A stretch of DNA of 52,740 bases from a virus (lineage: Duplodnaviria; Caudoviricetes): IMG/VR virus record IMGVR_UViG_3300025127_000054, positions 1 to 52,740 of that record; one strand, 5' to 3'. A program made the position numbers and the translations under genes. Below the pieces are notes generated by a model. It had not been told where the DNA came from, did no database searches, and saw only the letters and a program-made list of their open reading frames with translations. This document shows positions 204 to 49,400 of the stretch, piece by piece (position 1 is the first letter of the stretch; every line of letters begins with the position of its first letter).

Positions 204-489
204 GTTGCCTCCAATCATCAGATCTACTATTTTTAAAGAAATCTGCTATATCTTCTGCACCTTGAAATCCTCTTTTAGATTTACGTGGATCACCTATATC
301 CAAATACTTAAGACAAGATCCGTCTTCATCTATTGATAATCTTCTTGCTTGACTTAACATACCTCTCGCTGATGTGTTTGCCTTTGATAATTTCTCTGCC
401 CATATCATATCATCTATTCCTACTTCTGTTCCTGCTGCAATTGATTTGCAGATTCCTTCTAACCGAAGGCGGTATTGTGTAGATAACAT
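196..489 (-). CDS. Conserved hypothetical cyanophage protein (97 aa)
   Basis: ORF track; MLSTQYRLRLEGICK...DMIWAEKL...DDWRQRD resembles a family I recall from T4-like cyanophages; co-oriented with the operon. Confidence 0.85.
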   Translation of the reverse strand: MLSTQYRLRLEGICKSIAAGTEVGIDDMIWAEKLSKANTSARGMLSQARRLSIDEDGSCLKYLDIGDPRKSKRGFQGAEDIADFFKNSRSDDWRQRD

Positions 490-28416: not shown

Positions 28417-28424
28417 TATTTATG
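28417..28424 (-). promoter_or_regulatory. T4-type late promoter (CATAAATA) overlapping the gp7 stop codon
   Basis: ATAAATA core 26 nt upstream of the next ATG. Confidence 0.75.
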
Positions 28425-31400
28425 TGATTATCTCAGGGTCTACTACTTCTTCACCATATTGACTTAAATCTGGTGCAGTCCAGTCATCTGGAACAGAAGT
28501 TTCAACTGCGATATCAGGATTTTGGTATCCAGAACCTTGATTACTCATTGTAACTCCACCAACACCTACAAGTGCTCTAATATTACCTTCAAAACCAGAT
28601 ATAGAGTCAACCCTTACAGTTGGTCTTGTAGTATAACTAGATCCACCAGATGTGACCTGTACCTGTTTAATAAATCCAGTTGTTAGTGCAGCAGTTGCAG
28701 TAGCATCTTGACCAAATACAGATCCAAGATAATCAAATGTAATAAGTGAGTTAGAAGATTCAATAACAGCAACTGTTCTATCTTCAGTTTCACCCTGTAT
28801 TCTAATGTTATCACCAGGTTCTACAGGAGGTACAATTTCAGCAGCATCAACGTCTGCCTCAGAACCAACATATGAGAACGCAACGAATGTAGATCCAAAT
28901 CTAGGAATCTCAGAGAATATGATTCTAGAACCAACAATCTCAAAACCTATACCAGGTTCCTGTATAACACCGTTCAATGAACAGATGATATTGTTCTCTG
29001 GTCTAATTGATGATGACTGTACACCATCAGTCAATGTCAATGAGTAGAACACATCATTACGTTTCAAGTTGAATGACTGACGTAATGAATCAAACTCGAA
29101 TGATATATCATCTAACTGTCTAAGTTTACCAACATAGAATCCTGTGAATGATGCTCCTAAATCAGGTGCTTCAGTAAACTGAATCTGATTAGAGAACGCA
29201 GTATATGCGTTTGTAGCACCTGGTGGTTGTAGAATACCATTGATGAATATCAATAAATGTCCTGCAGGATCTGGTAGATAACTTGTACCATTATTCTGAG
29301 ATAGATTAAAGGTTGTTTGTACACCATCAAATCCTTTGAATGATCTCTTAACTCTTGCTTTAAGATCACCTTTAGCAGAAACTGCTGCCTTATAATTATC
29401 AGTACTCTGAATAGCATCGTTAACATCAAATGTTCCTACAACATCACTTAAGTATGCTCTCTTAAGAGTACCAACAGTCTTGATATCTTGAACAGTTGCT
29501 GTTGCAGCACCCGCAGTTGTTACCTTAGTAGTAATACTTGCATAACCTTGTGGGAAACTTTGTACTCCATAATCACCAACAGTATCACCATTAGTCAATG
29601 TTCCTTGGAACTCTTGTGCGTAGATATAATTATTTGGAATATCTACACCTGTAATTATAGCGTAAGTATTCAAATCTTGAACACCAGATGTAATCTTATA
29701 AAGTCTATTTCCAACTTGGAATGTAGCAAGACTGGATATAATAGAAATACCAAATCTTATATTTCCAGTAGATGCAATCTTAGCACCAACTTTAAGTTCT
29801 AATCCATCATACTTAATAACATCAAGATACTGTCTAGAACTCTCAGGGTAAACAACAGAATTGACTTCAAATGATCCATTTAAGGTTGCAGTATCAACAG
29901 TCAATGTACCACCAGTATTGTCTGTGACAGCAGCTTCATTCTGTAAGAATGATCCTGCAGGTTGTGCAGTAACTGCTGATGTATATCCTTTAAATGGTAT
30001 ATTATCAGTAAAGGTACCTTGTAAATCAATAATATGTAAACGACTCTCTATTGCACTAATCTGAGCAGTTGTAGAGTTGTTTGCACCAACAACATTATCA
30101 GTAATTGCCCAAGGACCTGCAGTCACTTTAACATCAAGATACTTGTAGTTTGCATCTTCAAAGAATCCGTAAACAACACCAGTAACAGAAGCATTACCTT
30201 GTTTCTGTACAGTCTCGTTCATAGTATAAGGACCGTCTGTTATATCACCATCAATTCTAAATCTTTGATATACCTGAACAACTTTACCTGAGTTTTCAAG
30301 AATAGATTCAAGTTCACCATATACATTACTTGATAATCCATATGCATAATCAGCATTGTTCAGTCCACCTGAAAGACCAATCGGAATATCTCTTTCTCCA
30401 TATAACTTAGTAGGAATAGTAATACCATTTTGAGATGTAATCTGAGTATAGTATGTACCAGTCTTAATTTGATTTCTAATAATATCAAGATTATATCTTA
30501 CAAGTCTACCCATTGATTTGGTAGTATAGTTTGCAGCTTCAGTTGAATCATAGAACTTATAGAATCCTGCATTAGGTGAAGGTTCTGTAAGTGTATTATC
30601 AAGTGCCTGTTGCATGTATGTCTGAAGTGTATTAATAGCATACTGCTTGATATTATATTCATTATCAGAATAGAATACTGTGCCATCACCAGACTGATAA
30701 GGATCAAGTGCAGTCTTAGTAAGTTTAACACCCCAAACATATATTCCGCTAGTTCCATCACCTGCATATGACTGAGCACCTTGAGCATTATTAATAATAA
30801 TTTTATTAGATAGAGTTGTGAAACCAAAGGAGAATGTAGTTGTGATAAATGCTCTATACCAACCATTACCAAGAGGAACTACTCCTGAGGCATCATTAGT
30901 AATACCATTTTGAGGTGTGAATACAGAACCTATAGTTCCTGCAGTTAAATTAAGGTCAAAGAATATTCTTTGTACAGCAGCTGTTCCCTCATCAAGTGAC
31001 ATTTGGAAACGAATTGATGTGTATCCTGCTGCCTTAACAAATGCTGAGAATGTAAATGTCTGATTTCCAGTTATTGATTGTGAACCTTCGTCAAATCTTT
31101 GATTAGTTGCGTCAAACTTGATTGTGCCATCATCAAATGTGTCAAATGCATTTAAGTTAAAGTCTCTATTTAAAGTGTGAAGTGCAGTAGTAGTGCTTGG
31201 TACAATCTTTTCAGAAGTAATTGTTTGATCAGGAGCAGCAATACTATTGTTTACAACACTTGCTTCAGTAGCAGTCCAATCTGTTGCAATTGCTTCTGGA
31301 TTAGTAAAGAGGTTAGCACCTGCAATTTGTCCAGTTATATTAGATGTAAGAGTTCTAGCATGTGCAATAGTTTGTACGTTTGTTGGTTTGTTATACCAGT

Positions 31401-34400
31401 CATAACCTGCAGCAACTGCATTAACTACACCTACTGACTTAGATGTTCTACCAACGATAGTATTACCATTTGCCCATTGTGTTCCTGTAAAAGGTCCTAC
31501 AATCAAGAATGATGTATCTTCATTCCATTCTAATACTTTTGCATACGCACCATTGCTTGAATGAATTACTTCACCAACTGTATAGTTTCCAATATTACTT
31601 GTTAATGTAATTTCGTATGCAGTTGTCTTATCTGTAAGATCAGTTGCAATAATATCATGAACTAAATCATCTGTAATATCTGTAATGAAGGTATCATATA
31701 CCCATGAACCTGCTCCAAACTGTGCGTTGACCTGATTTGTAATTTCCTCTTTATAGTAGTTGTAGTTGTAAAGAATATGTTTAGTAGCACTTCTACCTGC
31801 AAGTTTAGCAGGTCCTAAGAAGTCAACTGCAATTTGAACTAACTCTTTAAATCTAGTAACTACAGTAGCAATATCAGTTGGTGTTTCTGTATCTCTATAT
31901 GCAGTTTCATCAGTCTTCAATGCAGCATAATCAGGTGCAGTAAATCCACTGTTGAAATCATATAATCTATTGTTTATTGCATACTCACCAATAACACCTA
32001 CTTGTGATATAGAGTATATGAATGCTCCCAATTCTTTTTCTACATTTATTATTTGTAAATTAGAATCTAAGAATGTTTCTAAAGCTGTTATTGTACTATT
32101 ATTACCACCAGTTTGTAAGTCGGATATCATTCCCTGAATAATATCAACTAAATTTGCTTGACGTACAACCTCAGTATTACCAGTACCAGGATAACTGAAT
32201 GCTGTATATTGTACAGTGTTTAATGAATAACTAAATTCTTCTGATGTTAAACCAGTTGCTTCTTCAGCGATATACTGTCTGTTGAAGTATAATCTATCAC
32301 CTGCAATATTAAAGTCATTATTGGTAGGTGCAATTAAATTATTGACTGCTGTAATTAACGAGTCAACCTCAGTCTTAACAGCATCAAAATAAGTAGAAAC
32401 TCCATTGCCAGGAGTATCCCAGTCACCTGTAATAATATCATTGGTGTTATCATAAGTTAAATCTCCAGTAATTGATTGTTTAATATAAATTGCAAGACGA
32501 TCATGAGCATATATTGATTGAACAGGTTGTAGACGAACATGTCTTAGTTCATTATTATTTCCAAGATAGAAGTTTGCTGCCTCTGTAGTTTTTTCATTAC
32601 CACCATTTTCAATATCATTAGCAACTGCTTGAACAATTAATTGTAAATCAGTCTTACAACGTAATGTACCATCAGTAGATGTACCATTAGCGTTTCTTGG
32701 CATATCTAATGCAAGATCTGGATAACGTAGTAGCATATCGTATGCTGTTTTATCAACAATAACACTAGCATTTTGACGAATCAAATATGCAGCATCACGA
32801 TATCTGTATTGGGTATCTATATCAATTTGATTTGTATAGATTAAATCAGTTGCAGCATCATGATATGATACTGGGAATGGTATTTCTTTAAATCCTTTTA
32901 ATCGTGCACCTGCAAATTCAGCAGCAGGAGATACAGCAGTAACTGTAGCAAGATGATCTGTAGGAGATGCAGTTATAGCATTGTTTAATGTATCTGTTAA
33001 TATGGTGACTAAGTTGTTTTGAGTTGTAATAACATCAGAACAATCTGATAATGAGTAGAATACTTTTGTAACTGCATTTGAATTAGATGCAGTCCATGTA
33101 TGTGTATACTGATCTTCAGCAGCACCTACACCAACATTAACTGTAAATGTGTCTGTAGTATGTGCACTAATTGGTAATACCTGAGCAGATGCAGGGTCAG
33201 TGGATCTTGGATATGTATGAGTTGTAGTATTATTATCTTTAGTACATGTGAATGATAATGAATTATCTGAGATAATTACAGAGTCTCCTGCAACATCGAT
33301 ACCATTGCTTGTAGCAGATACGAACGTATGTGTGTAATTACCACCTGTAGATACCCCATTAGCAAGTCCAGATGCAAACTTATGTGTATAATTACCGCCT
33401 GTCTGAAGAAGTGCTCTTGTGATTCCATTACTTGTTGCAGATACAAATGTGTGTGCGTAGTTTCCACCAGTAGTTATAGAATCAGCAGTAGCAGAAACAA
33501 ATATATGATTAGAAGTGTTTGTAGAAGGAGTGCTTGCTAATGTCTGAACTGTAATTGTGTCATCAGTAACATCAGTAATTGTGACCGCAGTATTATAGTT
33601 AGGATCAGTAGTACGAGGATATGCATGATCTGTAGCATAGTTATCCTGAGCACATCTTAATACTATTGAATTTGTAGCAATCTTAATTGCAGTTCCCTTT
33701 CTTAGATTATGACGACCTATTGTAAGTGTCATGAATCCTGTTGTAGGATTATAATCAACATGTGTAGGAGTAAATTTCCTTAGAGGTGATTTACCAACAT
33801 TGATGCTTAGTTTATTATAGTCTACATTGAATACACTTAACCATTTACCAGTGATAGGATCAGTAGAACGAGGATATGCTTTGTTAGAACTATTGCCATC
33901 CATTGTGCAACTAAATGTGACTGCACCTGATGCTAATTGAATCTTTTCATGTTCTTTAATCTGATGTCCATACTGAACAGCGTTAGTTGCTGCAGATACA
34001 AATGTATGTGCAGAAGTATCTGAAATTGGTGTACCATCACCATTTACATTGACTGTAATTGTAGTTGCAGTTTCATTAGTGATTGTTAGATCATAATTGT
34101 ATGGATAATCATTGCTACTTGCTCTTGGATATGACTTCTGAGCAACGTTGCTGTCTAATGTACATGTGAATACTAAAGAATTAGGTGCGATTCTAACTGT
34201 ATCACCAACACTCAAAGTATGAGATCCAATAGTCAATACCATATCACCTGTAGTAGGATTATATGTTGCATTGGTTGGAGTAAAGTTAGTAGTTGCAAAT
34301 GTCAATTCCATGACACCAGTTGCTGCATCATAAGTTGCACCAGAAGGTGTGTACTGATGACCTGCAAATCCAGTTACAACGTGAGTAGTTGTGTTAGAAG

Positions 34401-37400
34401 GTGTATAACCATCAAGAGTATTAATTGTGATAGTTGAACCTGTAACAGCATCAATAGGAACTGCCTGAGCAACTAAAGGATCACCCTCTATAATTCCACC
34501 CTTAATAGCAGATACGAATGTATGAGTTGTTGTATTTGTAGAAGGAATCTTATCTAGAACAACAACAGTGAATGTAGTTGTAGTTGGAACAGATGCTACA
34601 AATAACCATCTATTACTTGCATAGTCTGTAGATCTTGGATATGGATGATTAGTTGCATTATTATCTTCACCACATGTAAATGTAAGAGATAAATCTTGGA
34701 ACATTATTGGTGTACCAGTTCTCAATCCATGTGCAGCTGCAGTTGTGACTGTCATTACACCAGTTACAGGATTGTAAGTTGTTCCAGTTGTAGCAGTATG
34801 TCTATCTTGCTCTGATCTTGGATATAGATGAACTGTAGCATCACTATCCTGATCACATGTCATCTTGATAGAATTAGGTGCTAACTTAATAGTTGAGTTT
34901 GCTTTACTTACACCACCAGATGTTGCACTTACAAATGTATGAGCAGTGACGTTAGTGGAAGGAATACTATCTAAAACTTGTACATCAAATGTGTTTGTTG
35001 TGACGTTAGAAATAGGAATCCACTTATTACTTACAGCATCAGTAGATCTTGGATAGTCATGGTTTGTAGCATTATTATCTTGTGCACAAGTAAATCTCAA
35101 TGAGTTATCTGCAATCTTAACTTTCTCACCATTAGAGAAGTTATGACCTGCAATAGTCAATGTCATGATACCTGTTGAAGGTACATATACTGCATTTGTG
35201 ACTGTATGAGTTGTTGGAGCAGGAAGACTATGACTTCCAATGTTTATCTCAAGTGCACCTGTGGTAGCATTATATGTTCCTGATTGAGGTTGGTAATTAA
35301 CTGTTGGTGATTTACCAATATTAACTGTGATTGTATTATCTCTCTTAGTAAGACCGTTCTCAAGAGCAGAAACAAATGTATGAAGATATTGATCAGCAAC
35401 AGCACCTATACCAACATTAACTGTAAATGTATTATCTGTCTTAGCAGTAATTCTTAACCATCTTTGTGCGTATGGATCTGTAGAACGAGGATATGAATGA
35501 GTTGTCTTATTACCATCTTTAGTACAACTAAATGTTAGAGAATTTAATTCAATTCTAACTTCATCAGTTAGTGTAAGACCATGTGCATTACTGGTAATGA
35601 CCATATCACCTGTTGTCTGGTTATATGATGCATTTGTTGCTGTAAATGTAGTACCATTAGTCCAGATTGGTAATGATGTATTATAACCAGGATCGTCAGT
35701 TCTTGGATAAGAGTGTATAGTTCTGAAATTATCTTGTGAGCACTTAAATGATACTGCATCTTTGGAAAGTCTTAGAGTTTCTCCAGAACGAACCATTGAA
35801 TTAGGTAGTGCATACTTGAATACATGAGTTGTAGTATTACTTGAAGTACCTACGTTTACAGTAAATGTATTTGTAGTAACGTTGCCTATTGCAATCCACT
35901 TATTATAGTAAGGATCAGTAATTCTAGGATATGCATGATCTGTAGCATTACTATCTTGAGCACATGTAAAGACGAGTGAATTTACACCAAACATCACTCT
36001 ATCACCAACATAGAATCCATGATTAGCAATAGTAATTGTCATCACACCTGTTGATGGATTATAAGCAATTCCCTCAGGTGTATACTTCCAACCAGTTCTT
36101 AGATCATTGTCTCCAATGTCCATTGTTAAGAATCCAGTCTCACCGTCATAAGTACCATCTGTTACTGTGTAATTTACAGTAGGAGATTTACCAACATTAA
36201 CACTAAAGTTATTTGCATCAATTCTTGTGACTTCCATCCAACCTTGACCAGCTGGATCATCAGGACGAGGATAAGATTGTGATACTGTATTACCATCAGA
36301 TGTACATGTCATGGTAATAGAATTTGGTTTTAACTTTATTCTATCACCAGTCTGAATGTTGTGACCGTTAGATGTAATAGTTAAAACACCAGTGGTAGCA
36401 GTGTATGTGGCATTTGATGCAGTAATTTCACGAGGTGAAAGTAATCCGTGACTGGAGCTGGTAAGAACCATATCTCCAGTTGCAGCATTATAAGTTGCAC
36501 CTGTAGGAGTGAAGTTTACAGCAGATGGATAATCAGAATCTTGTAAAGTTCCATCATACTTCTGTGTAAATGAATGACTTGTATCTTGAATATCCCAAGG
36601 AACGTTATTAATAACAAATTTTGATATCTTCTCTACAATTTCAGTTGCAAATACTTCTTGTGGAACATCACCTTCAATAGTTCCAGTTGCTATTGATATT
36701 GGGTTAGTTGTTCTATCAATATAAGATGCAGATGTATTCCAAATATGACTATTACTACCATTACGAAGATCATCTACTAATGCTTGTATAAGAACTTCAA
36801 GTCTTGTCATAGCAACAGCATCTCCACCTTTAACAGTATGAGCAGGGAATACCTGTTTCATAATGTACAGTGCTTCTGCCTTTATTAGATCTTTATTTAA
36901 TAATATGTGATCAGCAGCGTTTAAGTATCTGTGTGTTCTACCAACAAATCCAGCTGGTGCACCAGTAGTACGAGATGTTGCTAATATTGAATCATTATTA
37001 AACTCATCTCCAATAGCAGGAGCAACATAACCAGACCAATCTTCAGTATATGTTTGACCGTTAGAACCATCAAAATGAATTAATAACTTAGCATTTGTAT
37101 CACCTTGGTGTATTCCAGTTTGAGAAGTAAATGCTGATGTATAACGGTTAGTAGCAGATGCTCTAAATTCATCAATATATCCTGTAAATCCATTAGCACC
37201 GTTATAATCCATACCGATTCTAATTGGTTTAGCAGCAAAGTTGCTACTATCAGTTCCAGTACCAACTTCAACACCATTAAGATATATCTTAGTAGTTGTA
37301 GAAGATCTAACAATCGCTACATGATACCAAGTGTTATTATTAACAGTTGTAGCACCAGAAGTTACGAGATCTGATCCATTTACATTATAACGAATCTGAG

Positions 37401-40400
37401 CTGCTTCTAGATAAATTCTAGCAGCAACCTCAGTTGCATTTTCTCTTTGATCTACTAGAGTTGCAGTTCCAGATATTGATCCAGAACCAGGATTCATCCA
37501 GAACTCTATAGTAAATGCAGCAGTTCCCCATCCAAATTCACTAGAAGAAGCAATATTTACATAATCTCCTGTACCATCTAATAATAATGATGATCCACCA
37601 AACTTAAATGAAGCAGTAGAAAGTTGTGCATTACCTGCAAATGCAATAGAGTGAATATCTTGTCCATTGTATTGACATCTACCAATCTTACCAAGATAAA
37701 CTGTTTGTCTTGCTTGACTGAAACCAACAACCTCTGCCTTTGTACCTTCACCACTTCCTACAGAACCAATTCTGATATTTTGACCTGCTACAAAGAAACC
37801 AGTTCCTTTCTTATTATCAAATGTGATCTTACGGATCTTAGCATCTTCTCCTGCAGTAAAATCACCACTAGAATTACCATACTCTAATTTGTAATTTCTA
37901 ATATCCTCTCCTTCTTGGATTGTGCCACTAGCATTATCATATGGAATTACATAATTATTGATTTGCTCATTAGCAGGGAAGTTTTCGTTGAATGGAGTAT
38001 TATTATCTGTATAATTAACAATATTAACCTGAGAGTTAGCAATGTTATCAAGAACAACGTTTGGATATGTCTGTGATGTAATTCTGTTGAATAGTAAACC
38101 AAAGAATGATGATCCTGGTGATATATTAACCTGTCCAATAAACTCATTAGTTGTAGGATCTTGATATACACTAGATGCAGTAACCTGTGCTACAACACCT
38201 GATTGTGCAGCAATAATATAGTCATTGAGTTGAATATCAAATAATCCTGGTGTGGACTGATATGTACCTGCAGTCTTACTTAAAGTTAAAGTATTTGTGA
38301 CTGATATATCAGTGCTGTATACAGGAACATCTTCCTGATGTGAAACAGCAGTTGTACCTGACTGTGCTCTGACCACAGTAAGTGTTGTAGAATTACTATT
38401 TTGTACAACAGCAGTTACCTTAACAATCTCCGATCCAAACTGATAATTATTTTGTAATGTAAATGTTCCTGCAGGAACTACAGCATCTGCTTGAGTATTA
38501 TCAACTCTATATGCTACTACTTCTATAGAAGTTGTAGAAGTACCAACAGTATAACGTAATTGTGCAAGAGGTGTTTCCTGACCTGTCTGTAAGTTAACTC
38601 TTTCAACTTTTGCAGTATTACCTTCAAAGTTAGAAACTTGCTCATTAAATATAAACAATCCACCACTAGCAACAGTACCATTTACAGAATAAACTGTGCC
38701 AGAGAATGCTGCACTACCTGTTGCTAAAGTTCCAGTTATAGTCTCGTTTGCTTGGAATGTGCTTAGACTAATAGTTCCAGTTATAGTATTACCTAATATA
38801 CTGGTAATTGTCATTGCAGCACCAGATGTTTGACCTGTAAAGACTGTACCTGCAGTAATATCTGCATTATCAGGGAAGTTGCTTGTAGATACAGGATCAA
38901 TAACTAGAGATACACTTCTTGTTGCAATATTAGCAGAGAATCCAGTAGCACTAACAGTACATAATTCACCACCACCGCCACCTGCAGTAGGTAATATAAA
39001 TGTTCCTTGAGTTATGAAACCAGTAATAACATTACCAACAACTTTTGTGACTGTTAAACGAGCACCAGATGAAGTACCTACAACAGTATTACCAATACTA
39101 GGGAAAATACCACTAATATTACTAAAGTTTAAATCAACTGTTTGTATAAGATTGATAGTAACGTTTACATACTTAACACTAGCAGGAGGTTGTGGTGGTT
39201 CAACAAATACAATAGAGTCCTGCTGAATACTAAATGCAGTGCCAGGTGTTTGTACAATACCATTAAGAACAATCATTAACTGGTTTGCGTTAGCAACAAT
39301 ATTAGTCTGATTAACTTGTAATGGGAACGCAGTTCTTTCACCGTCGAATAGAGATGATATATCATCAATTCTCTGTACAACAGATGTTAGGATGTTCTCA
39401 GAAGATGTTAATCGTTTCTGTCTGAATAATACTTCGGTGTTATTAAATTCTGTGTAAACTGGTTCAACAAGAGCAAAGTTTTGGATATTAGGAACAATCG
39501 CTTCTTGTGCTAATTCAACTGATTTTGTTAATTGGAAGAATGTCTCTTTATTAGGAATAAATCCATACTCATTTAAGTTAAGTTCACCAAATACTTTGAA
39601 TGATGCAGGGTGTACGTTCTTGATAAGAATCTCTTTCCACTCACTAATAGAAGTAGAAGATTTAACAGCATAAGAGAAGTCCTGATAATAGTAAGAGTCT
39701 TGAATCTTCTGAATAATCTCAGATGGTTTACCAACATCATCAATAAATTGACCTGTAGTTTTAGTAATAGATCCAATCTCAAGAACACCACGAGCAATCT
39801 TAAGATCTGTAATGATACCAGAAGATTTAGATATAACACCAGTAATTCTTTGATTCGCTGCAAAGTCTCCAGTGTAATCAACAATCTTAAGTACTCTAGG
39901 TCCTACCTGCCAACCAGAGTTAGTAGAAACAAATCCCTGTGCAGTTGCAGTATCAAGTGAATCACCTTGATATACAAGTTCTCCTTCTAGGAATGTTGAT
40001 GTAATAACGTTTGCAGTAGCAGATCCACCGAATGATTCAGTTAATACTTGTTGACGACCTGTACCTGCGTTAGAGAATGATAATGCATCACCAAGTGAAG
40101 CGTTAGCAGCAGTAATAGCAAGTTTTAATTGATCTTCTTCTAGTGAGTTTGCAGTACCAGATATAGCATAGTAAGTTGTACTACTATTCAATCTACCAAC
40201 AGCACCTGATGCAAGAGGGAACTCAGCACCATCACCAGTATCAACAACATTCAATGTAACTGCAGCACCATTTGCAATACCATGTGGGAAAGCAAACTGT
40301 AGTAATCCTAAGTCAAGGTTTACAACATAGTTGAATGAAGATCTCAGTGCAACAGTTGGAGTTGAAGAATATCCTGCACCAGGATCTTTAACAATAATAA

Positions 40401-43400
40401 CATCTAATCTACCATTCTTAATTGTTGCTTCAGCAACAGCACCAGAACCTCCACCACCAGTGATAACAACAGCAGGTGCCTGTGAATATCCAGTACCTGG
40501 ATCTGTAATAGTAATACTATCAAGTATACTTGTAGAAGTAAGCTGTGCGTTTATTGGGAATGATATTTCAGGGCGTAGTGTATAGTCATGTGGATAATCA
40601 TAACCAAAGTTATTGTTCTTAAGTTTCTTAATCTTACCTACATTAGTTCCTGAAGTAAAGATAGATGCTCCTGTACCTGCAGATGGTATAACAACTACTA
40701 ATTCTGCACCTGATCCAGTCAAACCCGATCCAAGAATACCTGGTATGGCGTTAATATCAATAGTTGCTGTAGTATAATTTTTACCTGGCGATGTTACAAC
40801 AACGTTGTTTATCTGACCTGGTATTGTAGATCCTTCTGCATCAGTTCCATCTGCAACAGTGATAGAAACGAATCCACCCTCTCCATCACCACCAATAGAA
40901 ACTCCACTATAAGTTCCTACTGCATATTCAGTACCTGGTGCATTTATCTGTACTCTTTCAATTTGTCTACTTGATGTAATACCACTAACAATAGGCAACT
41001 TAGTATAGAAACCACCTGGATTGACAATACGAATATCACCAATAGAACCAACCGCTTTGGTAGAACTTGTCATATAAGATGCTTGTGATATAGTTGCAGC
41101 ACCTTCTGGTTCATTAGCAAGTGGGAACTTGAGTATATCAGCACCCTTAGTAATAGTTGCACCTGCAATAGAACTAATCTCAAATGTTCCGTTATATGGA
41201 GAATCTACAACATCAAGGTAGCTGCCAGGTACCACTGGGCTATCAGTGCCTGTTCTTGATGGATCAAAGTAATATGATATATTTGTTACTATACTTCTAT
41301 CAACTTTAAGCTTTACTGTAGGAGTTGGTTGTCCACCACCAGTAACACCAGGTGTACCAACTCTTTCTATAGAGTTGAATGAATATTCTAGTTTGTATAG
41401 ATTATCTTTTGCAAATGATAAGTTTCCACCCGCCATAGATGAATGACTTAGGTCAAACAAATACTGATGACCATAATACATCTTTAATGTAGGTGATTTA
41501 ATAAAGATACTTACATCAGATGCTGATGTAGCAGGAGCAGTTAGAGCAGCTGTCTTTAACTTGTAAGTAAATTCAAGAGGACTTACAACAGTCTGTACAG
41601 CAAATGCACCATCATATTCATCATATGAAGTGGCACCAATAGTTTGTGTTGGGTTTCCATCAACATAAACCATATCACCTGTAGATAAGTAATGACTTGT
41701 ACTTGTAATAACATACACTTCATCACTATTTGCTACAGCAGTTGCTTGAAGAATCTTAGTTAAATTAGCAACTAGAGTAATTTTAAGAACACCTGTTAAT
41801 CCAGCTATTGTTGCTTGAGAGTAATCAGCGTTCCATGTAATTGCACCAGATCCTATAGTAACTACAGATCCAACAATATATGCAGATGATCCAGAAACTT
41901 GATCTATTCTTACAGAGTAGTCAGCATCAGCATATGGTTTGAATGTTGCGAATGAGTCTAGATTACCTGTGCAAGAGTTAATAGTAAATTTAGCATCTCC
42001 ATTACCACCAGTTACTACAACTTCATCACCAACTTTATATCCACTACCTGCAGCGTTTCCTATAGTAATAGTTTGTATAACACCACCAGATGCAGTGTAA
42101 TTAACGATTAATCCAGTTGCCTCACCATTAGTTGTAGTTGTAGGAATACTATCACCAGTATTAGGATAACCTGTACCTGCTGCACTTAAAGCAATAGTTG
42201 CAGGTATATCTGCTATTGTACCATCTAAATCAAAACCATCTAAGTTGATAATAAATGTGCCAGGTGTTTGATTATTAATTTCTGCAAAAGTATAGTTTGT
42301 TATTTCATTGATATCATTAGGAATTGCACCAGTAATACCATAACTACTCTGCTCATTAAATTGTTCTGTAGATAATTGACCAGTGTTTAGATCATTACTC
42401 CAAGCATTATTATTAACTGCTAGGTAAACCTTATTATTTGCATCATCCTTTCTAATAATATAACCACTATTAACAAATTGACCAGAATCATTCTTTAATA
42501 CTAATTTAGAACCAATACTAAAGTTAAATGCTTGGTTAACAGTTAATTCTTGAACATTATCAATTTTAATTGTAGGTGTGACTTTAAAGTAGTATCTGTC
42601 TTTAACAACTGCAGTTACTTTCAGTTTTTGTGAACCTGGTGAAGGAACAGTAGCAGTTCTAGAACTCCAAACATCTTGAACATGAGATAGTGTCTCAGTG
42701 TCCTCAGTCATGGTTGTAGTACTATCATCAAAGTCTAATGATTGATAACCTGCATCACCTAGAGCGAAACCATTTACATTTATTGTGAGAGGTGAACCAA
42801 TAACAGGAGTCACAGCAGTTCTTGTGAAGGTTATACCAGTATTAGGTTTCTTACCCTGATTTCCTAATCTTGCTGCATCTGCAGGTTTGTCAACCTTAAT
42901 ACCATATCCTGCATATTCAATGTAATCATAACGACTCATTGCATCAGTAAACCATGCATCATCAACCCAGTCATATGAAAGACCATATGCACCTGCAGTA
43001 GGTAATGCTAGTATATCAGTTGGAACTGTTGGTGTGACTGCTCTATTTCTTAAACGTAAGTGATCTATGTGGAATTGACCCTGTTCATTAGATCTAAACT
43101 GACCTAATGTACCATTTGCACCAGGTATATTACCAAAGTATAGATCTTTAGCACCTAGTGATGTTCCTGATATAGTACCAGTAAGAACTTCTATTCCGTT
43201 TACATATGCCTTAAATGTATCACCACTCTTAGTTACTGCAATTGCTTGCCATGTATTATCAGCATATAAGTTTGTTTGAGATGATGTTAGAGAACTACCT
43301 GCAGAGTTAATACTTGTACTACTATTAGTGATAGTCATTGTCAAAGGACCACTCGGACCTGCAGAAGACTGATCATAGTATAAATGTAGTCCACCAGTAG

Positions 43401-46400
43401 ATACTGTAGCATCACCTATAGCAAAAAGTGTTTCTTTAGGCTGGGAGAATACATTACTGTTTGTAGCATCCTTGAATATAAAGAATTCTAATGTCCAATC
43501 TCCTGCAAGTTTTTGTCCTAAGTCTGCAGCTGCAAATTTAATATTAGTATTTGTCCAAACGCTTGGTGCTGCTGTTGTTGCACCTAAGATCTTACCCCAT
43601 CCATTTGTATTGTCATAACTAAACGAGTCGCTTGTGCTTGTAAGAGCAGCAGTATAATGGGTTGTAGTATCTGTAAGAGCACTAGATGTGAATGGTATAA
43701 CAAATTCATTTCTATTCCAATAAGTCTGACCAAATACATGTACATCACCAGATGTATCAACATCTAAAGCATGTGCCTGTAAACCTTCTATATTATCAGC
43801 AGTAAATTCTGTAGTTGTATGATTCTTAATAGTACCATTATAACCAATCTTAAGAGTATCAATTGTTTTGTACTCATTAGTATTATTATCTCTAGTATAT
43901 GCAATATTAAGATCACCAAATAAGTCAATAGCAGACTTACCACAGGATGTAACATCTCTGCCTGGTGTTAGATAACGATAGTTCCAAAGTAAAGCACCTG
44001 TACTATCAATCTTACCAACCCAAACACTGTCTCTATCAGTATCATTTGCTTTTTGTCTACATGTAGCATTAATATAGATTTCATTAAATTCATCTATTGC
44101 AATGCTAGTGTCTATCATAGAATGTAGAGAACTAGCATAAGTATTGATCCAGTCAACAGTAATGGCATTGACTCCAATCTGACACTTACCAACAGCAACA
44201 TCAACATCTAAAGCGTTTGCTGTAGATGCAGTCTCCATACAGAAATAAACATCTTGTGAACCTGTTGCTTGGTTGTAATTACAGATAATATCAGTAATTC
44301 TTTCAGATTTATTTGAAGAAGCAAATTTTCTCTTAATAGCAAAATTACCTGATGTATCAATAGATGCTATAAATGCATCATCAGGGTTTACAGAGTTTGT
44401 ATTTGTATGTCCACCGATTATATAACGAGTTGCACTATACTTTTTAATTATTGAGATATTATCAGCACGAGTACTACCAGATATACCTGCATATGCTTTT
44501 TGGAATGAAAGTGTTGCACTTAGACCGTTTGCTGCCTGTGTATACTTACAAAGAATTATATCAGGATTATATGCATTAAGAATATTGCTATTTGGTTTGT
44601 TAATACCTACAACCCAAATATCATCACCATCAACATATAATGAATTAAATTCTGCGTAATTTAATCCACCAGAGAGTTCAAGAGTTTTTGACCATTCTTT
44701 AACACCAGTTGCTGATAATTTAGAGACGAATGCAACGACGTTGCCACTTGAGTCTTTTGTTTTACCACAGATGAATACTTCCTTGTTATCGTTAACGAAG
44801 GTATCATTGACTTTGACATAATTGTTATTATTAATGAATGATAGGTAGTAATCTGCTTTTTTAAAGATCTGTGGATGTGAAAGTATAACTCTTGGATTTG
44901 CTGAGTATCCAGAACCAGAATTAATAATATTAACAGAATCAATAGAACCTACAGTAGATACAACTGCTTCCAACTCACCATCTTGACCGCTAGTGCTATC
45001 AATGATGATTGTAGGAGGAATATCAGTATTGTATCCAGATCCAGTTTGTGTAATTTGTATTTCTTCTATACCTCTATACTGACGAACAGCAAACTGTTTG
45101 TTAGTATTATCCATCACAGGTGTATAATCAACAAATATACTGTCACCTGCAACTAAGTTGTGTGGATTAGAAGTTGTTAAAACACCAAAGTTATTACCAC
45201 TTATACTTTCAAAGGTGTAAGTAGCAACTGACTCACCTTTAATACGAGAAACACGTGCAGAAGCACCGTCTCCACCAGTTCCTGTATTATCAAAAACTAA
45301 ACGGTCATTTACCTGATATGATAGACCTGAGTTCTCAATAGTAAATCCAGTAACGTTAGCATCTTCAAATTTGTTAGTTGTTTCTACTTCAATATCAACT
45401 TTTGAGTCAAATCTAACTTTAGGGAAGTAATCAAATAGTTGTAAAGGTGATTCTTCAAATAACTGTCCAAGATTTGCAACATCTTGTTCGTCAGCATCTA
45501 TTTGTCCATCTCTATTAGTATCTTCTGGATCAAATAATAGTATTAGACCATCTTCAGTTGTTAGAGCATTAGTAGAAGCGTTAGGTGCTCTTTCAACATC
45601 AATATCAACATTTTCATATGGATCACGATATCTTACAACACCAGTTGGAATATTTTGCTGTACAGCACTTGTGCTTAAGTTCCAACTATCAACAACAGAG
45701 TTAAAACTAGGACCTAAGACATAAGGGAATTCTGGATTACCTGATTCAGTAGCATCAATAGTAACAAAATAACAATATCTACCTGTAGGATACTCAGGTG
45801 TCTTACAGAATCTACCATTATACTGGTCTAGATCACCAAGGTTAAAGATATACTCATAGTCTTCAACAAAATTACCTGCTGCCTCTGCACTAAGCAAAGG
45901 ACCTGCAGTTCTTACAGGAGTTGGATTAGTATCACTTTGTACAAGAGCAGTCTGTAGTCTATATGAAGTTCTTAGTCTTGTAATAGCAGATGCTTGATCT
46001 GTAGGGTCAGTATATCCATAAGGACCGTATATTGGGTTTCCATCAAATGCCCAACCAATAATAGGAGAGTGAGTTAACTGTGTTTCTTGTTCAGTTATAG
46101 TACCTACGGTTGCTTCTTGTAGGTTATCACCAAGAATGAAACGTAATTTTTGTGGATTTGATAAATGAGCATATTCTCCACCATACTGATTATTATATCC
46201 TTCAAATACTCCACCTTTAGCAGCGTCTAATACAGATGTTGCTTGTAAGTTATATGTCCACTTAAATACTGAAGGTGTAAAGACTGCATCTTGACCAACA
46301 GATGTCATATTAATAAGAGTAGTTCCTTGAACGTATCCAATACCACGGTTGACAATAGTAATACTTGTCACTCTACCTGCGTTTTCACCATCAGTGTCTA

Positions 46401-49400
46401 TGGTAGCACGAGCAACAGCACCAAATCCAACACCTTGAATACTAACTTCAGGTGCTGTAGTATATCCTGAACCTGCAGAGATGATAGCGATAGAAATGAT
46501 TCTACCATTACTTACGATAGGCTGGGCGACGGCTCCTGAACCAGAAGATAGACTTACAGTCGGTGCACTGGTATAAGAAGTACCACCATTGGTAATATTA
46601 ACGGTATTAATAGGACCTCTGACACTTGCAGTGCCCGCAGCACCAGTTCCTCCGCCACCAACAATAGTAATAGATGGTTGTGAAGTATATCCTGTACCAC
46701 CTGCATTAATTAGAATTCTTGATACAACACCTTTAGTAATAATAGCAGTTGCTGCTGCTCCTGAACCGCCTCCACCAACGATTGATACTAGAGGAGAAGA
46801 TGTATAACCAGAACCACCTGCTGTTACTGTAATCTCAGAGATAGAACCATTAACTATAACACTAGCAGTAGCACCTGTACCTCCACCACCAGAAATAGTG
46901 ATAACAGGAGGAGATGCAGCATCATAACCTTGTCCTGCATTAGTAATAGCAATACTGGTTATAGCACCGAAAGTTTTACTTTGTGTTGACTTATATGACC
47001 ATACAGAAACACCATTTACCCATGTACCAATAGGACCTGAAGAAATAGTGTTCTTTGTAGATATTGTAGTAGGTAATGCAGGGAATCTGTTTAATTTACG
47101 TTGGTTGCCAGGTAAAAGAGCAGAACCAGGAAAAGGACCTATAGAATAGTTTGGTATACCAGTTGATGCAACGTAAGTATGATTATCATTAAAGAATGAG
47201 TTTTGTATATTAGTAGTATAAGGACCTACTGCATTTAAAATTGTACTGGTATCAGACTTACCTTTGTTTAAGTCAACTGATACTAGAATATTACCCTGAG
47301 GTACGATCGCTGCAGGTTGTGGTAGTGCATACTGGAATACTGTCTCACTATCTCTTGATGTGACAGTAAATGTACCATTATAGATGATTGGGTTTGCACC
47401 ATAGACTGTAACCTGATCTCCAACTAACAAACCATGATTGTTAGCACAAGTAACAGTTGCAGATTGGTTATTTACACCACCAAATGTAACACCACTAACA
47501 GTAATCAGTTTTTTAACGTTGTATAACCAAGTTGTAAGTAAAGGAGATGTTCCAGTACCACCTAACTTAGAAACTGTTAGTTTATCACCTTGCAAGTAAT
47601 AAGAACCTGTGTCAGTTAGAGATGTTTGTTGTGCATCAACAATACCAACAACATTCATCACAACTTCTTGTGGTGTGTCTTTATTAATCTTTACTTGGAA
47701 GTTTGATGTAACTTCAGTAGCAGAATCCCAGTCCTCTACAACTCCGTTTGCTGAACGAGTACACTCAATGAACTGGTTAAGTGATTTTTCCTTATATTGT
47801 ACTAATTCTGCAGTAGCACCCGAACCAATTATGAATTCACCGTTTCTTTCTGGCCAACCAATAGTAGAGTCAACCGTAATGATTGAGTCGGTTTGATTTA
47901 ATGGTTCAGCAAGTTTTGTCTTATAAGGTACGGTAAACGTTCCTGTAATAGTTTCTTCAGACAGAACAAGTTCAAATATTTCTACTGTAGATGTTTTGAT
48001 TGAAATATAGTTTTCAACTAACGCAGATGCAGCTCTTACATTAGGATCCGCAATATCTGCTTCTTGTTGTAGAAGACCATCTCTAATGTCTGTAGCAAGT
48101 CCAGAAACCTTAGTTGCTCTTAAAATAGTATCAATAGACCATGTTGCAGCAGATGGTTTGATAATCTGATCTTTTGGATATGATATACTTACGGTTTCAC
48201 CGTATAATAACTTGAATAGATACGCAATACTGAATGATGTACCCTTTGCGGAGTAGAAATCTTTAATAGTCTTGATTGCTGTACGAACATCAATCTTTGT
48301 ATAGTCTAGTTCTGGTACATCGGGTAAGAACTGTTGTGTATACTTGTCTAATAAACGTTTTACAAATAATGCGTCAAGACATTTTACCTCTGTATCAACA
48401 GAAGCAGCTGAGGCAGTAGTATTGTTAGAGAATACTGCATTACCATCTTCCGTGTATTCTACGATACCAGATGCAGCACGTGCACATCCTACGAACTGTG
48501 CTTTATTATATTCCTTACCTGCCTGATTAACTTTAAAACCTGTAACCTCGTTTAAACCTATATCCGCAGACGCTTCAGCACTTGGAGGTGCTTGAATTAC
48601 AACAGAAGGGGGATTTGCAGCAGAATATCCAGTTCCGAACGCACTTACGTTAATATCTGTAATTGCACCGTTAAATATTGCAGCAGTTGCGGTAGCACCT
48701 GTACCACCTGCGTATGCTCCAGTACCATCTACACGTTTATCAACAATATAAACGGAAGGAACTTCATCATATCCGCTTCCTCCGTTAAGTATATCGATAC
48801 GAATAACTCTTCCGTCTCCGTCAACAACAACTTCTAGTACTTGTGCACCAACAGGATCTACAATCGCTACTCTTGGAACGGATGTATAACCTTGTCCTGC
48901 GTTAATTGTAGTAATAGATGCAATAGTTCCGTCTGCAGCAAGAACTGTTTGGAAAGATGCTCTGATTGGATTATTACCAGTTGGTTCATCAACATACACT
49001 GTAGGAGGAGTTGTATATCCAAATCCTGCATTTACTATTGTTAAACCACCACTAATAGATCCACTAGATAACGTCGGAGTGGCAACTGTAGCACCGCCAG
49101 GTTGTCTAAAAGTGATTCTAGGTGTAAATGTATATCCAGAACCTGATCCAACTAATTCTACACCAGTAACAGCACCATTAGTTACTGTTGCTTTCATTGT
49201 TGCCTGTGTAGATCCAGTCTTAGTTGGAGACTGTACCTGAACAACAGGAGGGTTTGTATCACTATAACCTTTACCACCATCAAGAAGACTTACACTCTTG
49301 ATACCATTTACTAATGCTGTTGCTGCACCACCAGATCCAGTAGTTGTGTTAATAGAAACTTTTGGTGGATATTCAAATCTATAATTACTACCATTTACAT

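What the first reader, a model, noticed from the sequence alone, without database searches (positions are those of the whole stretch)
33061..36525. A branched protein tree: 11 copies of one domain recursively inserted into each other's loops in gp7
Seen: the ~105-aa unit reads (F/Y)TPTxATYxPxTGxMxLTxxxHxLxxGxxIxIxxNSLxFTCxxDxxxxxHxYPRxTDPxxxxWxxIxxVxxxTFTVNVGxxxxxxxHTFVSAxxNG. Six copies are contiguous (D ~36090, E ~35650, G ~35215, H ~34805, J ~34295, K ~33783). Five copies (A, B, C, F, I) are broken by insertions, and their pieces resume in strict last-in-first-out order: A(B(C(D,E,F(G,H,I(J,K))))). Three units break at (V/I)GKSP (about 36190, 35310, 33790), and exactly three orphan closing strands TGGNY(A/T)H(T/K)F follow together at 33300-33472. 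Unit A then resumes at AGDSVIISDNSLSFTC, about 1050 aa after its first half. Every motif class totals 11. At least five different loops accept inserts, and C and F each carry three children. Inference: the chain folds into a branched appendage, not a linear string of domains, with each internal domain tied to its parent by two strands. The whole tree sits in a loop of a helical repeat (DSDYP...FYSLSDCSDV). Single domain insertions are well known; I do not know of a described multi-level branching case, but I cannot check the literature.
Basis: partly seen in the sequence, partly recalled or inferred. Interest (0 to 1): 0.92.

Follow-up and report, generated by a model that had tools for sequence, protein, structure and literature searches.

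The report
Nested beta-barrel tree in cyanophage gp7
A giant baseplate protein of a Prochlorococcus-type phage holds eleven copies of one small beta-barrel domain inserted into each other's loops five levels deep, a rare branched architecture so far described mainly for cyanobacterial RNA polymerase.

Summary
In the 7310-aa gp7-like ORF (28420-50352, minus strand), aa 4612-5763 hold 11 homologous ~105-aa units: six contiguous, five split into 2-5 pieces. I excised full-length profile matches and searched again. This reduced the region completely in 5 rounds, and all 11 units became full-length matches (63-151 bits). None of 300 block-shuffled versions did so.

The topology is A(B(C(D,E,F(G,H),I(J,K)))).

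- Phage P-SSM4 has the same tree.
- A 52%-identical orthologue keeps all 11 units but splits its D and K counterparts with six extra whole units.
- The unit folds as a nine-strand beta-barrel (pLDDT 97.6), and the four insertion hot spots fall in loops.
- The I(J,K) sub-tree folds at pLDDT 90 with I's three pieces forming one barrel.
- The two halves of A, 1046 aa apart, dock with score 0.66 against 0.01 for controls.

At least 41 of 121 homologues reduce fully, to depth 9.

The kind is not new: cyanobacterial RNA polymerase Si3 is a published recursive, branching nest of SBHM domains. This is a new fold, a new setting and a larger scale. Function is unknown; host-surface binding is inferred only.

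The parts
28420..50352 (-). Giant gp7-like baseplate wedge ORF, 7310 aa, that carries the tree
   Evidence: The finding region (window 33061-36525) is 86.7% nt identical to P-SSM4 gp7. Pfam Baseplate_wedge at aa 683-730 scores 34.7 bits against a cut-off of 27. The flanking genes are baseplate genes.
36433..36519 (-). Unit A, piece 1 (aa 4612-4640; strands b1-b2)
   Evidence: Profile positions 2-28. Docks on A piece 2 in the complex model.
36178..36432 (-). Unit B, piece 1 (aa 4641-4725; ends at VGKSP)
   Evidence: Profile 2-83, 91.9 bits. Heals with aa 5669-5686 to 112.8 bits.
36091..36177 (-). Unit C, piece 1 (aa 4726-4754)
   Evidence: Profile 2-29. C heals from its pieces to 63.1 bits, E 1.3e-19.
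35791..36090 (-). Unit D, contiguous (aa 4755-4854)
   Evidence: 126.6 bits, profile 2-103.
35653..35790 (-). Unit C, piece 2 (aa 4855-4900)
   Evidence: Profile 25-72, 32 bits.
35344..35652 (-). Unit E, contiguous (aa 4901-5003)
   Evidence: 125.3 bits.
35302..35343 (-). Unit C, piece 3 (aa 5004-5017; DNTITVNIGKSP strand and socket)
   Evidence: Sub-profile S4 hit at 3.5 bits. Part of healed C.
35215..35301 (-). Unit F, piece 1 (aa 5018-5046)
   Evidence: Profile 2-26. F heals to 68.3 bits, E 3e-21, profile 2-94.
34903..35214 (-). Unit G, contiguous (aa 5047-5150)
   Evidence: 151.3 bits. AlphaFold2 model pLDDT 97.6, pTM 0.89.
34804..34902 (-). Unit F, piece 2 (aa 5151-5183)
   Evidence: Profile 28-59, 22.9 bits.
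34489..34803 (-). Unit H, contiguous (aa 5184-5288)
   Evidence: 121.4 bits.
34360..34488 (-). Unit F, piece 3 (aa 5289-5326) plus a 5-aa linker; F closes here
   Evidence: Profile 59-94, 10.5 bits. Its closer is weak.
34291..34359 (-). Unit I, piece 1 (aa 5332-5354)
   Evidence: Profile 2-26. Two strands at pLDDT 86-96 in the I(J,K) model.
33973..34290 (-). Unit J, contiguous (aa 5355-5460)
   Evidence: 118.3 bits.
33781..33972 (-). Unit I, piece 2 (aa 5461-5524; ends at VGKSP)
   Evidence: Profile 23-82, 62.1 bits. Strands b3-b7 in the model.
33469..33780 (-). Unit K, contiguous (aa 5525-5628)
   Evidence: 119.2 bits.
33415..33468 (-). Closer of I (aa 5629-5646; TGGNYAHTF...)
   Evidence: Heals I to 109.1 bits. 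Forms strands b8-b9 at pLDDT 88-91.
33349..33414 (-). Closer of C (aa 5647-5668)
   Evidence: Sub-profile S5 hit at 8.1 bits. Part of healed C.
33295..33348 (-). Closer of B (aa 5669-5686)
   Evidence: Sub-profile S5 hit at 19.1 bits. Part of healed B.
33064..33294 (-). Unit A, piece 2 (aa 5687-5763)
   Evidence: Profile 28-104, 80.1 bits. Heals A to 107.8 bits. Complex score 0.66 with A piece 1.
36520..37035 (-). Host module, N-side flank (aa 4440-4611)
   Evidence: Joined by coordinates to the C-side flank, it aligns across the junction to aa 6017-6193, E 2.3e-5.
32833..33063 (-). Host module, C-side flank (aa 5764-5840)

Best explanation
Aa 4612-5763 of the gp7-like baseplate protein encode a branched tree of eleven homologous ~105-residue beta-barrel domains. 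The tree was built by recursive domain insertion and has the topology A(B(C(D,E,F(G,H),I(J,K)))).

How the unit works as both guest and host:
- Each unit is a nine-strand barrel whose first and last strands pair. Its two ends therefore sit together, and it can plug into a loop of another unit.
- Four loops act as sockets: b2-b3, b5-b6, b6-b7 and b7-b8.
- The b7-b8 socket in B, C and I has a dedicated junction motif, (V/I)GKSP before the insert and TGGNYxH after it.
- A split unit folds by bringing together pieces that lie up to 1046 residues apart.

The whole tree is itself an insert in one copy of a repeated module of the protein.

The tree grows and shrinks in evolution by whole balanced units or sub-trees, and its shape differs between related cyanophages.

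What is shown and what is inferred:
- Shown by sequence: homology, order, balance and orthologue differences.
- Shown only by prediction: that the pieces reassemble into barrels.
- Inferred only (about one chance in three): the tree is a rigid, multivalent surface appendage of the baseplate periphery that binds host envelope glycans and contributes to host range. The grounds are the fold's likeness to the inserted beta-barrel of phage endosialidases and the fast turnover of topology.
For: Sequence.
- A profile built from contiguous units only (517 unique units) maps every fragment to complementary profile ranges.
- Peeling reduces the region to nothing in 5 rounds, joining residue 4611 to 5764. 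All 11 units come out full length (63-151 bits) with no residual hits.
- Controls: 14 of 200,000 symbol shuffles parse. In 300 sequence block shuffles, 0 reach 11 units.

Comparison with other phages.
- P-SSM4 gp7 and contigs L001-L003 and L006 have the same topology.
- P0010 (52% identical) has a best-matching counterpart of every unit A-K at 53-81% identity, in the same nesting. Its D counterpart is in three pieces carrying five extra units, and its K counterpart is in two pieces carrying one.
- L010 (55% identity to unit D) keeps A-E. In place of F(G,H) and I(J,K) it has one different three-unit sub-tree, and it has two orphan closers instead of three.

Structure predictions.
- Single unit: pLDDT 97.6, pTM 0.89, nine strands.
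- In one representative of each of 23 fully reduced topologies, 291 breaks cluster at unit positions 22-31, 57-64, 72-77 and 85-92. All four clusters are loops of the model.
- I(J,K): pLDDT 90.2, pTM 0.76. I's pieces carry strands b1-b2, b3-b7 and b8-b9.
- Ten single small barrels from the PDB superpose on model range 1-, 2- or 6-..319. Examples: 1kk0, Z 6.0, rmsd 3.1 A, 72 aligned; 9b3j_A, Z 5.2, rmsd 2.3 A, 60 aligned. J and K are matched separately at 25..134 and 193..300.
- The two halves of A: score 0.66 (runs 0.64-0.70) against a best control of 0.01. That mark was reached by 58 of 80 solved complexes and 2 of 110 mismatched pairs. The partner's pLDDT was at least 77 and the runs agreed on at least 96% of contacts. 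b2 pairs with b7, and the N-terminal strand pairs with the C-terminal strand.

Socket motif. Of 183 b7-b8 breaks, 57 have G.SP before the break and 62 have GG.[YF].H after it. Among 175 contiguous units, 2 have G[KRQ]SP (a narrower pattern than G.SP, which was not counted in contiguous units) and 0 have GG.[YF].H.

Context. Baseplate genes lie on both sides, and Pfam Baseplate_wedge matches the N-terminal part.
Against: - No coordinates of the models can be read here. Which strands pair inside I(J,K) rests on pLDDT, the strand pattern and aligned ranges that give only the first and last residue.
- The alignment used for I(J,K) is deep only for I piece 2, K and I piece 3. I piece 1 and J had 7 near-identical rows.
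- The whole 1170-aa tree, and units B, C and F, were not folded.
- F's closer is weak (-5.2 bits), and F aligns only to profile position 94.
- The crude symbol parse gave 0 of 121 perfect parses among the homologues at the 2.5-bit and 5-bit thresholds, and 2 of 121 at 0 bits.
- Peeling fully reduces only 41 of 121 homologues and leaves 584 residual partial hits in all. The rule is therefore not shown for the whole family.
- In RNA polymerase Si3, some recursively inserted domains swap strands (PMC11515920). The same could happen here.
- Nothing tests function. Fold matches have Z below 8, which may mean only a common arrangement. The Pfam endosialidase-barrel hit is far below its threshold.
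Confidence: 0.8

Rival explanations
1. The units are homologous and interleaved, but they do not fold as discrete nested barrels. The strands are exchanged between neighbours (domain swapping), giving one interdigitated beta structure in which parent and child are not separate domains.
For: Recursively inserted HABAS domains of RNA polymerase Si3 in some cases exchange secondary-structure elements (PMC11515920, passage read). No contact map could be read for my models. Linkers between pieces are only 0-5 residues.
Against: J (25..134) and K (193..300) are each matched as whole barrels in the I(J,K) model. Single small barrels also superpose on range 1..319 at rmsd 2.3-3.1 A. The strand pattern of I's pieces equals that of contiguous units. 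The A halves alone form the b2-b7 and N-C strand pairs expected of one barrel.
Confidence: 0.1
2. The first reader's exact tree, A(B(C(D,E,F(G,H,I(J,K))))), with I nested inside F.
For: Peeling of two orthologues (P0005, P0007) printed this bracket string.
Against: In those two proteins, F's last 'piece' beyond I is a single residue, an alignment spill. In the window, F's d and e segments (aa 5289-5326, profile 59-94) precede I's opener at aa 5332. With F closing after I there would be four units awaiting a closer (B, C, F, I) but only three orphan closers, leaving one unit unclosed.
Confidence: 0.03
3. The partial pieces are decayed remnants of a tandem repeat array, unfolded or linker-like, and their apparent complementarity is coincidental.
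For: Some pieces score weakly on their own: C opener 4.7 bits, F opener 5.7 bits, two closers 5.2 bits.
Against: Complementary profile ranges sum to exactly 11 full units. None of 300 shuffles does so. Every split unit A, B, C, F and I has a best-matching counterpart in P0010 at 53-81% identity. The Cys, YPR and closing His are present in all 11 units. I's pieces have high pLDDT.
Confidence: 0.03
4. Assembly artefact: repeats were mis-joined in a metagenomic contig.
For: The record is a 52.7-kb metagenomic viral contig, estimated 30% complete.
Against: The cultured phage P-SSM4 genome has the same topology, as do four independent contigs. DNA copies are only 60-90% identical over 27-206 nt, so there are no long identical repeats to mis-join. 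The frame is open for 7310 codons.
Confidence: 0.01

Closest known systems
Si3 insertion of cyanobacterial and chloroplast RNA polymerase beta' (rpoC2): recursively nested SBHM/HABAS domains
   Same: - Many copies of one small beta domain are inserted into each other.
- Some copies are continuous and others are built from distant segments. In T. elongatus Si3, SBHM-1, -6, -7 and -8 are continuous and SBHM-2 to -5 are discontinuous (PMC10895346).
- The Prochlorococcus rpoC2 model has six levels and bifurcating nodes (PMC13114784).
- The whole nest sits in a loop of a host element.
   Different: - Different fold as far as tested: the top structural matches of the unit are the endosialidase barrel, the Uba1 FCCH domain and FNR-type barrels. 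No RNA polymerase chain appears in the top 50, which does not exclude one.
- The setting is a virion baseplate protein, not an enzyme.
- The scale is 11 units here and up to 28-29 units and 9-11 levels in homologues, against 8-9.
- The topology differs between related phages, whereas Si3 is described as an ancient, retained insertion (PMC11515920).
- There is a dedicated socket motif.
Beta-barrel domain of phage endosialidases (K1F 1v0e, phi92 4hiz; Pfam PF12195)
   Same: It is the best structural match of the unit: VIA Z 7.6, rmsd 2.4 A, 80 aligned; Foldseek TM 0.56, probability 1.0, E 0.1. From recall, not from a call: it is itself a domain inserted in another domain and binds sialic acid.
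   Different: The Pfam match is far below threshold (16.9 bits against 35, E 0.006, covering only residues 8-39). Sequence identity is 13-23%. No ligand residues were compared. Endosialidases carry one copy, not a nest.
T4 gp7 baseplate wedge protein and the P-SSM4 / P-SSM2 'gp7' giant genes
   Same: Same gene position between gp6-like and further baseplate wedge genes. Pfam Baseplate_wedge matches in the N-terminal part. P-SSM4 orf080 is annotated gp7 and is 86.7% nt identical over the finding region, window 33061-36525. Sullivan et al. 2005 noted these genes of more than 15 kb as gp7 fusions that likely encode tail-fibre subunits (PMC1079782, one passage read).
   Different: From recall, T4 gp7 is about 1000 aa and has no such domain array. 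The nested architecture is not mentioned in the passage read.
First catalytic cysteine half-domain (FCCH) of ubiquitin E1 enzymes, and FAD-binding barrels of FNR-type reductases
   Same: Similar six-strand barrel core (Z 7.5 and 5-6). Several FNR-type matches align over chain ranges of 200 or more residues with about 70 aligned. This fits a barrel that itself hosts an insert.
   Different: No sequence relation was found, Z is below 8, and the function is unrelated. This is a likeness of arrangement only.

Membership tests
Recursive nested domain-insertion architecture (type case: RNA polymerase Si3) | Several homologous copies of one domain in one chain | tested here: met
   11 units, each a full-length profile match after peeling (63-151 bits).
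Recursive nested domain-insertion architecture (type case: RNA polymerase Si3) | Some copies are discontinuous and resume in last-in-first-out order over two or more levels | tested here: met
   Five split units and 5 levels. Shuffle controls: 14 of 200,000 and 0 of 300.
Recursive nested domain-insertion architecture (type case: RNA polymerase Si3) | Bifurcating nodes (one host carries several inserts) | tested here: met
   C carries D, E, F and I. F carries G and H. I carries J and K.
Recursive nested domain-insertion architecture (type case: RNA polymerase Si3) | Discontinuous pieces reassemble into one folded domain | tested here: inconclusive
   Supported by prediction only: I(J,K) pLDDT 90.2 with single barrels aligned over model range 1..319; A halves score 0.66 against 0.01 for controls. 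No solved structure, and B, C and F were not folded.
SBHM / HABAS domain (the Si3 repeat unit) | Hybrid-motif fold (CATH 2.40.50.100) | tested here: inconclusive
   No RNA polymerase or lipoyl-type chain is among the top 50 of Foldseek or VIA-wide for the unit. Absence from a list does not exclude the fold.
Endosialidase beta-barrel (Pfam PF12195) | Score at or above Pfam's gathering threshold | tested here: not met
   16.9 bits against a cut-off of 35, E 0.006, residues 8-39 only.
Endosialidase beta-barrel (Pfam PF12195) | Same fold | tested here: inconclusive
   Best match, but Z 7.6, rmsd 2.4 A, 80 aligned, TM 0.56, Foldseek E 0.1. Z below 8 may be a common arrangement.
Endosialidase beta-barrel (Pfam PF12195) | Sialic-acid or glycan binding site | not tested
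T4-type gp7 baseplate wedge protein | Baseplate_wedge domain (PF23786) above threshold | tested here: met
   34.7 bits against a cut-off of 27, aa 683-730, though only profile positions 174-221 of 284.
T4-type gp7 baseplate wedge protein | Gene position inside the baseplate wedge module | tested here: met
   Upstream: phrog_219 baseplate wedge subunit (E 3e-219). Downstream: phrog_677, phrog_708 and phrog_438 baseplate wedge proteins.
T4-type gp7 baseplate wedge protein | Presence in the virion baseplate | not testable with these tools
   Needs proteomics or cryo-EM.

The most novel reading that the evidence does not exclude
A self-hosting beta-barrel with dedicated socket loops lets cyanophage baseplate and fibre proteins grow rigid, branched 'dendrimer' appendages by inserting or deleting whole units. 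The trees reach 28-29 units and 9-11 levels, which is deeper than the six-level Si3 nest, the deepest case named in the passages I read. They are reshaped between related phages and serve as an evolvable multivalent host-recognition surface.
Probability: 0.4. Interest if true: 0.8.

Novelty: new variant of a known kind. Interest (0 to 1): 0.7.

Why it matters
- It gives a second, independent natural example of recursive, branching self-insertion of a domain. The fold differs from the Si3 case, the scale is larger, and the turnover between close relatives is visible. The evolutionary steps (whole-unit gain and loss, specialised socket loops) can therefore be read directly.
- It marks a domain family with no Pfam model. 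I found 770 cluster representatives among 1.84 billion proteins. The split copies defeat ordinary domain annotation.
- It predicts a branched, doubly tethered and therefore rigid appendage on the baseplate of abundant ocean phages, six per virion if gp7 stoichiometry is as in T4 (recalled). This could bear on host recognition.
- For protein design, it offers a natural scaffold that tolerates inserts in four loops.

Tried and rejected
- Symbol-string stack parse of the homologues. It gave 0 of 121 perfect parses at thresholds 2.5 and 5, and 2 of 121 at 0. The short d and e pieces are missed by sub-profiles. I dropped it in favour of peeling.
- First peeling thresholds (profile end at least 97). 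These stalled at F. I relaxed to profile end at least 93 and profile start at most 8. With the stricter setting, 32 of 121 homologues reduce fully, and P0006, L004, L005 and P-SSM4 stall at F.
- P-SSM2 gp7 gave only 4 units and 7 residual partial hits. Its tree was not resolved.
- Alignments A3 to A6 for folding I(J,K). MAFFT placed rows of simpler nested pairs on the wrong units, for example a child on K or a parent's closer on K's closer. I rejected them because they would feed false couplings to AlphaFold2. A7 was used. In A7, units most like J still aligned to K, so J and I piece 1 stayed shallow.
- The whole 1170-aa tree was not folded.
- Pfam found no family for the region.
- A profile search of PDB sequences found only a weak hit to iota-carbonic anhydrase 7c5x (E 8e-5, unit positions 13-54) and nothing else below E 0.6. 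This was not followed up.
- No RNA polymerase Si3 chain appeared among the top 50 structural matches. This shows nothing either way.
- Literature searches found no paper describing nested insertion in cyanophage gp7 or in phage tail proteins. The library holds only open-licence papers and preprints. Supplements were closed, so Si3 topology figures and tables were not seen. Searches were poorly targeted.

Full report
WHERE IT IS

The window is a 52.7-kb viral contig, an estimated 30% of a genome. It comes from a T4-like cyanomyophage. The finding region (window 33061-36525) is 86.7% nt identical to gp7 of Prochlorococcus phage P-SSM4, and the same to P-RSM3.

The finding lies in one open frame of 7310 codons on the minus strand, 28420..50352. 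The frame sits between a gp6-like baseplate wedge gene and further baseplate wedge genes. The protein also carries Pfam Baseplate_wedge (aa 683-730), YHYH and two Laminin_G_3 domains.

The region is aa 4605-5774. Pfam has no family for it. PHROGs only files it with giant 'tail fiber / virion structural' families, matched in 9-10 stretches.

CHECKING THE OBSERVATION

I built a profile from the six contiguous units. I then rebuilt it from 517 unique contiguous units found in 121 large homologues. No split unit went into the profile.

The profile maps every remaining fragment of the region to a partial, complementary range of the 105 positions:
- Openers at profile 2-28.
- Middles at 25-72, 28-59 and 23-82.
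- A d+e end at 59-94.
- Closers at 86-104.
- A's remainder at 28-104.

Four sub-profiles each count 11 copies. F's closer is weak at -5.2 bits. The only hit in the other ~6100 residues scores -4.0 bits. An independent profile search of the record returns the same six full and eight partial matches.

IS IT NESTED?

A strict stack (last-in-first-out) parse of the 44 segments is perfect. Only 14 of 200,000 shuffles of the 20 blocks parse.

The stronger test is peeling. Full-length profile matches are excised, the remainder is searched again, and this is repeated. In 5 rounds the region disappears and residue 4611 becomes the neighbour of 5764. All 11 units are recovered as full-length matches with no partial hit left:

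| Unit | Bits |
|---|---|
| A | 107.8 |
| B | 112.8 |
| C | 63.1 |
| F | 68.3 |
| I | 109.1 |
| Contiguous units | 118-151 |

In 300 block-shuffled versions, 6-10 units are recovered and never 11.

The tree is A(B(C(D,E,F(G,H),I(J,K)))).

DNA copies are only 60-90% identical over short blocks. The units are therefore old, and the order is not an assembly artefact.

RELATIVES

The cultured phage P-SSM4 has the same tree, as do four metagenomic contigs.

P0010, 52% identical over the region, has a best-matching counterpart for each of A-K (53-81% identity) in the same nesting.
- The counterpart of D, which is contiguous in the window, is cut into three pieces. They carry a four-deep chain of units and one further unit.
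- The counterpart of K is cut in two by one unit.

Contig L010 (55% identity to unit D) keeps A-E. In place of F(G,H) and I(J,K) it has one different three-unit sub-tree, and only two orphan closers follow instead of three. Openers and closers therefore change together, by whole balanced units.

Across the 121 homologues:
- Peeling recovers 1446 units, 773 of them split.
- 41 proteins reduce completely, giving 29 distinct topologies of 10-28 units and depth 4-9.
- Two proteins with 29 units reach depth 10-11 with one or two residual hits.
- The other 80 leave partial hits, 584 in all 121. The rule is therefore shown for a third of the family, not for all of it.

Some proteins are arrays of a regular four-level nest, '((()))' repeated 4-7 times.

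The family is small. It has 770 representatives at 50% clustering among 1.84 billion proteins, and all 150 listed have 2-30 matched stretches.

STRUCTURE (PREDICTIONS)

Single unit. Unit G, with 113 diverse contiguous units as alignment, folds at pLDDT 97.6 and pTM 0.89 into nine strands.

Insertion sites. In one representative of each of 23 fully reduced topologies, 291 insertion breaks cluster at unit positions 22-31, 57-64, 72-77 and 85-92. These are the b2-b3, b5-b6, b6-b7 and b7-b8 loops of the model.

Nearest solved folds:
- The beta-barrel of phage endosialidases: Z 7.6, rmsd 2.4 A, 80 aligned; Foldseek TM 0.56.
- The FCCH barrel of ubiquitin E1.
- FNR-type FAD barrels.

All have Z below 8, so this is a likeness of arrangement and not proof of kinship.

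The sub-tree I(J,K) (aa 5330-5648) folds at pLDDT 90.2 and pTM 0.76.
- I's three pieces have pLDDT 86-96 (piece 1), 81-96 (piece 2) and 88-91 (piece 3).
- They carry strands b1-b2, b3-b7 and b8-b9, which together make the pattern of a contiguous unit.
- In a structural comparison, endosialidase and E1 barrels superpose on J (25..134) and K (193..300).
- Ten other single small barrels of about 70-110 residues superpose at rmsd 2.3-3.8 A, with 60-82 residues aligned, on model ranges starting at residue 1, 2 or 6 and ending at 319. This requires I's first and last pieces to belong to one compact barrel.

The two halves of A (aa 4606-4641 and aa 5686-5768), given as separate chains, dock with score 0.66 (runs 0.64-0.70). 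The best of three controls scored 0.01.
- The mark was reached by 58 of 80 solved complexes and 2 of 110 mismatched pairs.
- The partner's pLDDT was at least 77, and the runs agreed on at least 96% of contacts.
- The counts hold only roughly, because my own alignments were used.
- The best-defined contacts are b2 with b7, and the N-terminal strand with the C-terminal strand. The ends of a unit therefore lie together, as an insertable domain needs.

Caveats: no coordinates are visible to me, and the alignment for I piece 1 and J was shallow. B, C, F and the whole tree were not folded.

HOW IT LIKELY WORKS

The unit is both guest and host. Units split in the b7-b8 loop form a sequence class of their own.
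- Of 183 such breaks, 57 have G.SP before the break and 62 have GG.[YF].H after it.
- A second group uses G.SGPN before and H.PQS.H after.
- Of 175 contiguous units, 2 have G[KRQ]SP (a narrower pattern than G.SP, which was not counted in contiguous units) and none has GG.[YF].H.

B, C and I of the window carry (V/I)GKSP and TGGNYxH. I read this as a socket kept by selection, with hosts descending from hosts.

Each inserted domain is held by two short connections of 0-5 residues. The result should therefore be a compact, rigid, branched body rather than beads on a string (inference). The pTM of 0.76 for three domains fits that.

The tree is itself an insert. With it removed, the flanks align in one stretch across the junction to aa 6017-6193 of the same protein (24% identity over 192 columns, E 2.3e-5). 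That this module is helical was not tested.

Function is not shown. Three things make a multivalent host-surface binding appendage the best guess:
- The likeness to the endosialidase barrel.
- The place in a baseplate protein that Sullivan et al. 2005 took for a fibre fused to gp7 (PMC1079782, one passage read).
- The quick turnover of topology.

I give that about one chance in three.

WHAT IS KNOWN

There is one: the Si3 insertion of cyanobacterial RNA polymerase beta'.
- The crystal structure of T. elongatus Si3 has eight SBHM domains. Four are continuous and four are built from distant segments (PMC10895346, passages read).
- Alvarez-Carreno et al. 2024 call the units HABAS and describe them as recursively inserted and partly domain-swapped (PMC11515920, passages read).
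- A 2026 survey of 2.7 million domains reports most insertions as single-level. It singles out the Prochlorococcus rpoC2 model as a six-level recursive nest with bifurcating nodes (PMC13114784, abstract and passages read).

The principle is therefore known. What is new here:
- The domain family, which has no Pfam model and no solved relative by sequence.
- The fold.
- The virion setting.
- The size and depth in the family.
- The socket motif.
- The fact that related phages differ in tree shape.

My searches found no paper describing this in phage proteins. They cover open-licence papers and preprints only, and supplements were closed.

VERDICT

It is wrong in one node of the tree and in the claim of no precedent.
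- Novelty: a new variant of a known kind.
- Interest: 0.7.

Noticed in passing
window 33064-36519 (all 11 units); alignment A2: Cys43 and His92 of the unit are present in all 11 window units, and His24 in 9 of 11. All three are 90% or more conserved in 113 units. They lie on three different pieces of a split unit (end of piece 1, the middle, the closer). A metal site or H-bond cluster that ties the pieces together is conceivable.
   Followed up: no
window ~46200-49400 (aa ~330-620 and ~1090-1300 of the ORF): Long runs of a short repeat of about 40-50 aa with the motif G(S/T)GY(T/S)..P.V.I are visible in the translation. They look like a plain tandem array, unlike the nested region.
   Followed up: no
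homologues P0013, P0020, P0030, P0038 and others: The precomputed Pfam list for several giant homologues includes PF00502 (phycobilisome protein). That is odd for a virion protein. It may reflect the repeated, presumably helical module that hosts the tree.
   Followed up: no
window 32200-33063 and 36520-37035 (aa 4440-4611, 5764-6193): The module that hosts the tree recurs downstream without an insert (aa 6017-6193; weaker match at aa 5849-5919). The motif D(L/I)..GGN recurs in each copy.
   Followed up: partly
unit positions 13-54; PDB 7c5x: A profile of the unit weakly matches residues 99-140 of iota-carbonic anhydrase (E 8e-5, 25.7 bits). This is the only PDB sequence hit below E 0.6.
   Followed up: no
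homologues P0018, P0028, P0035, P0041, P0078; locus L069 aa 1305-1712: Other giant phage proteins hold regular arrays of a four-level nest (host in the b7-b8 loop, again b7-b8, then b6-b7, then a leaf), repeated 4-7 times, each followed by consecutive closers.
   Followed up: partly
window 5517-13490 and 14005-21252 (minus strand): Two further giant ORFs (2657 and 2415 aa; phrog_697 'structural protein', phrog_358 unknown) lie in the same module. Neither contains the nested unit.
   Followed up: partly
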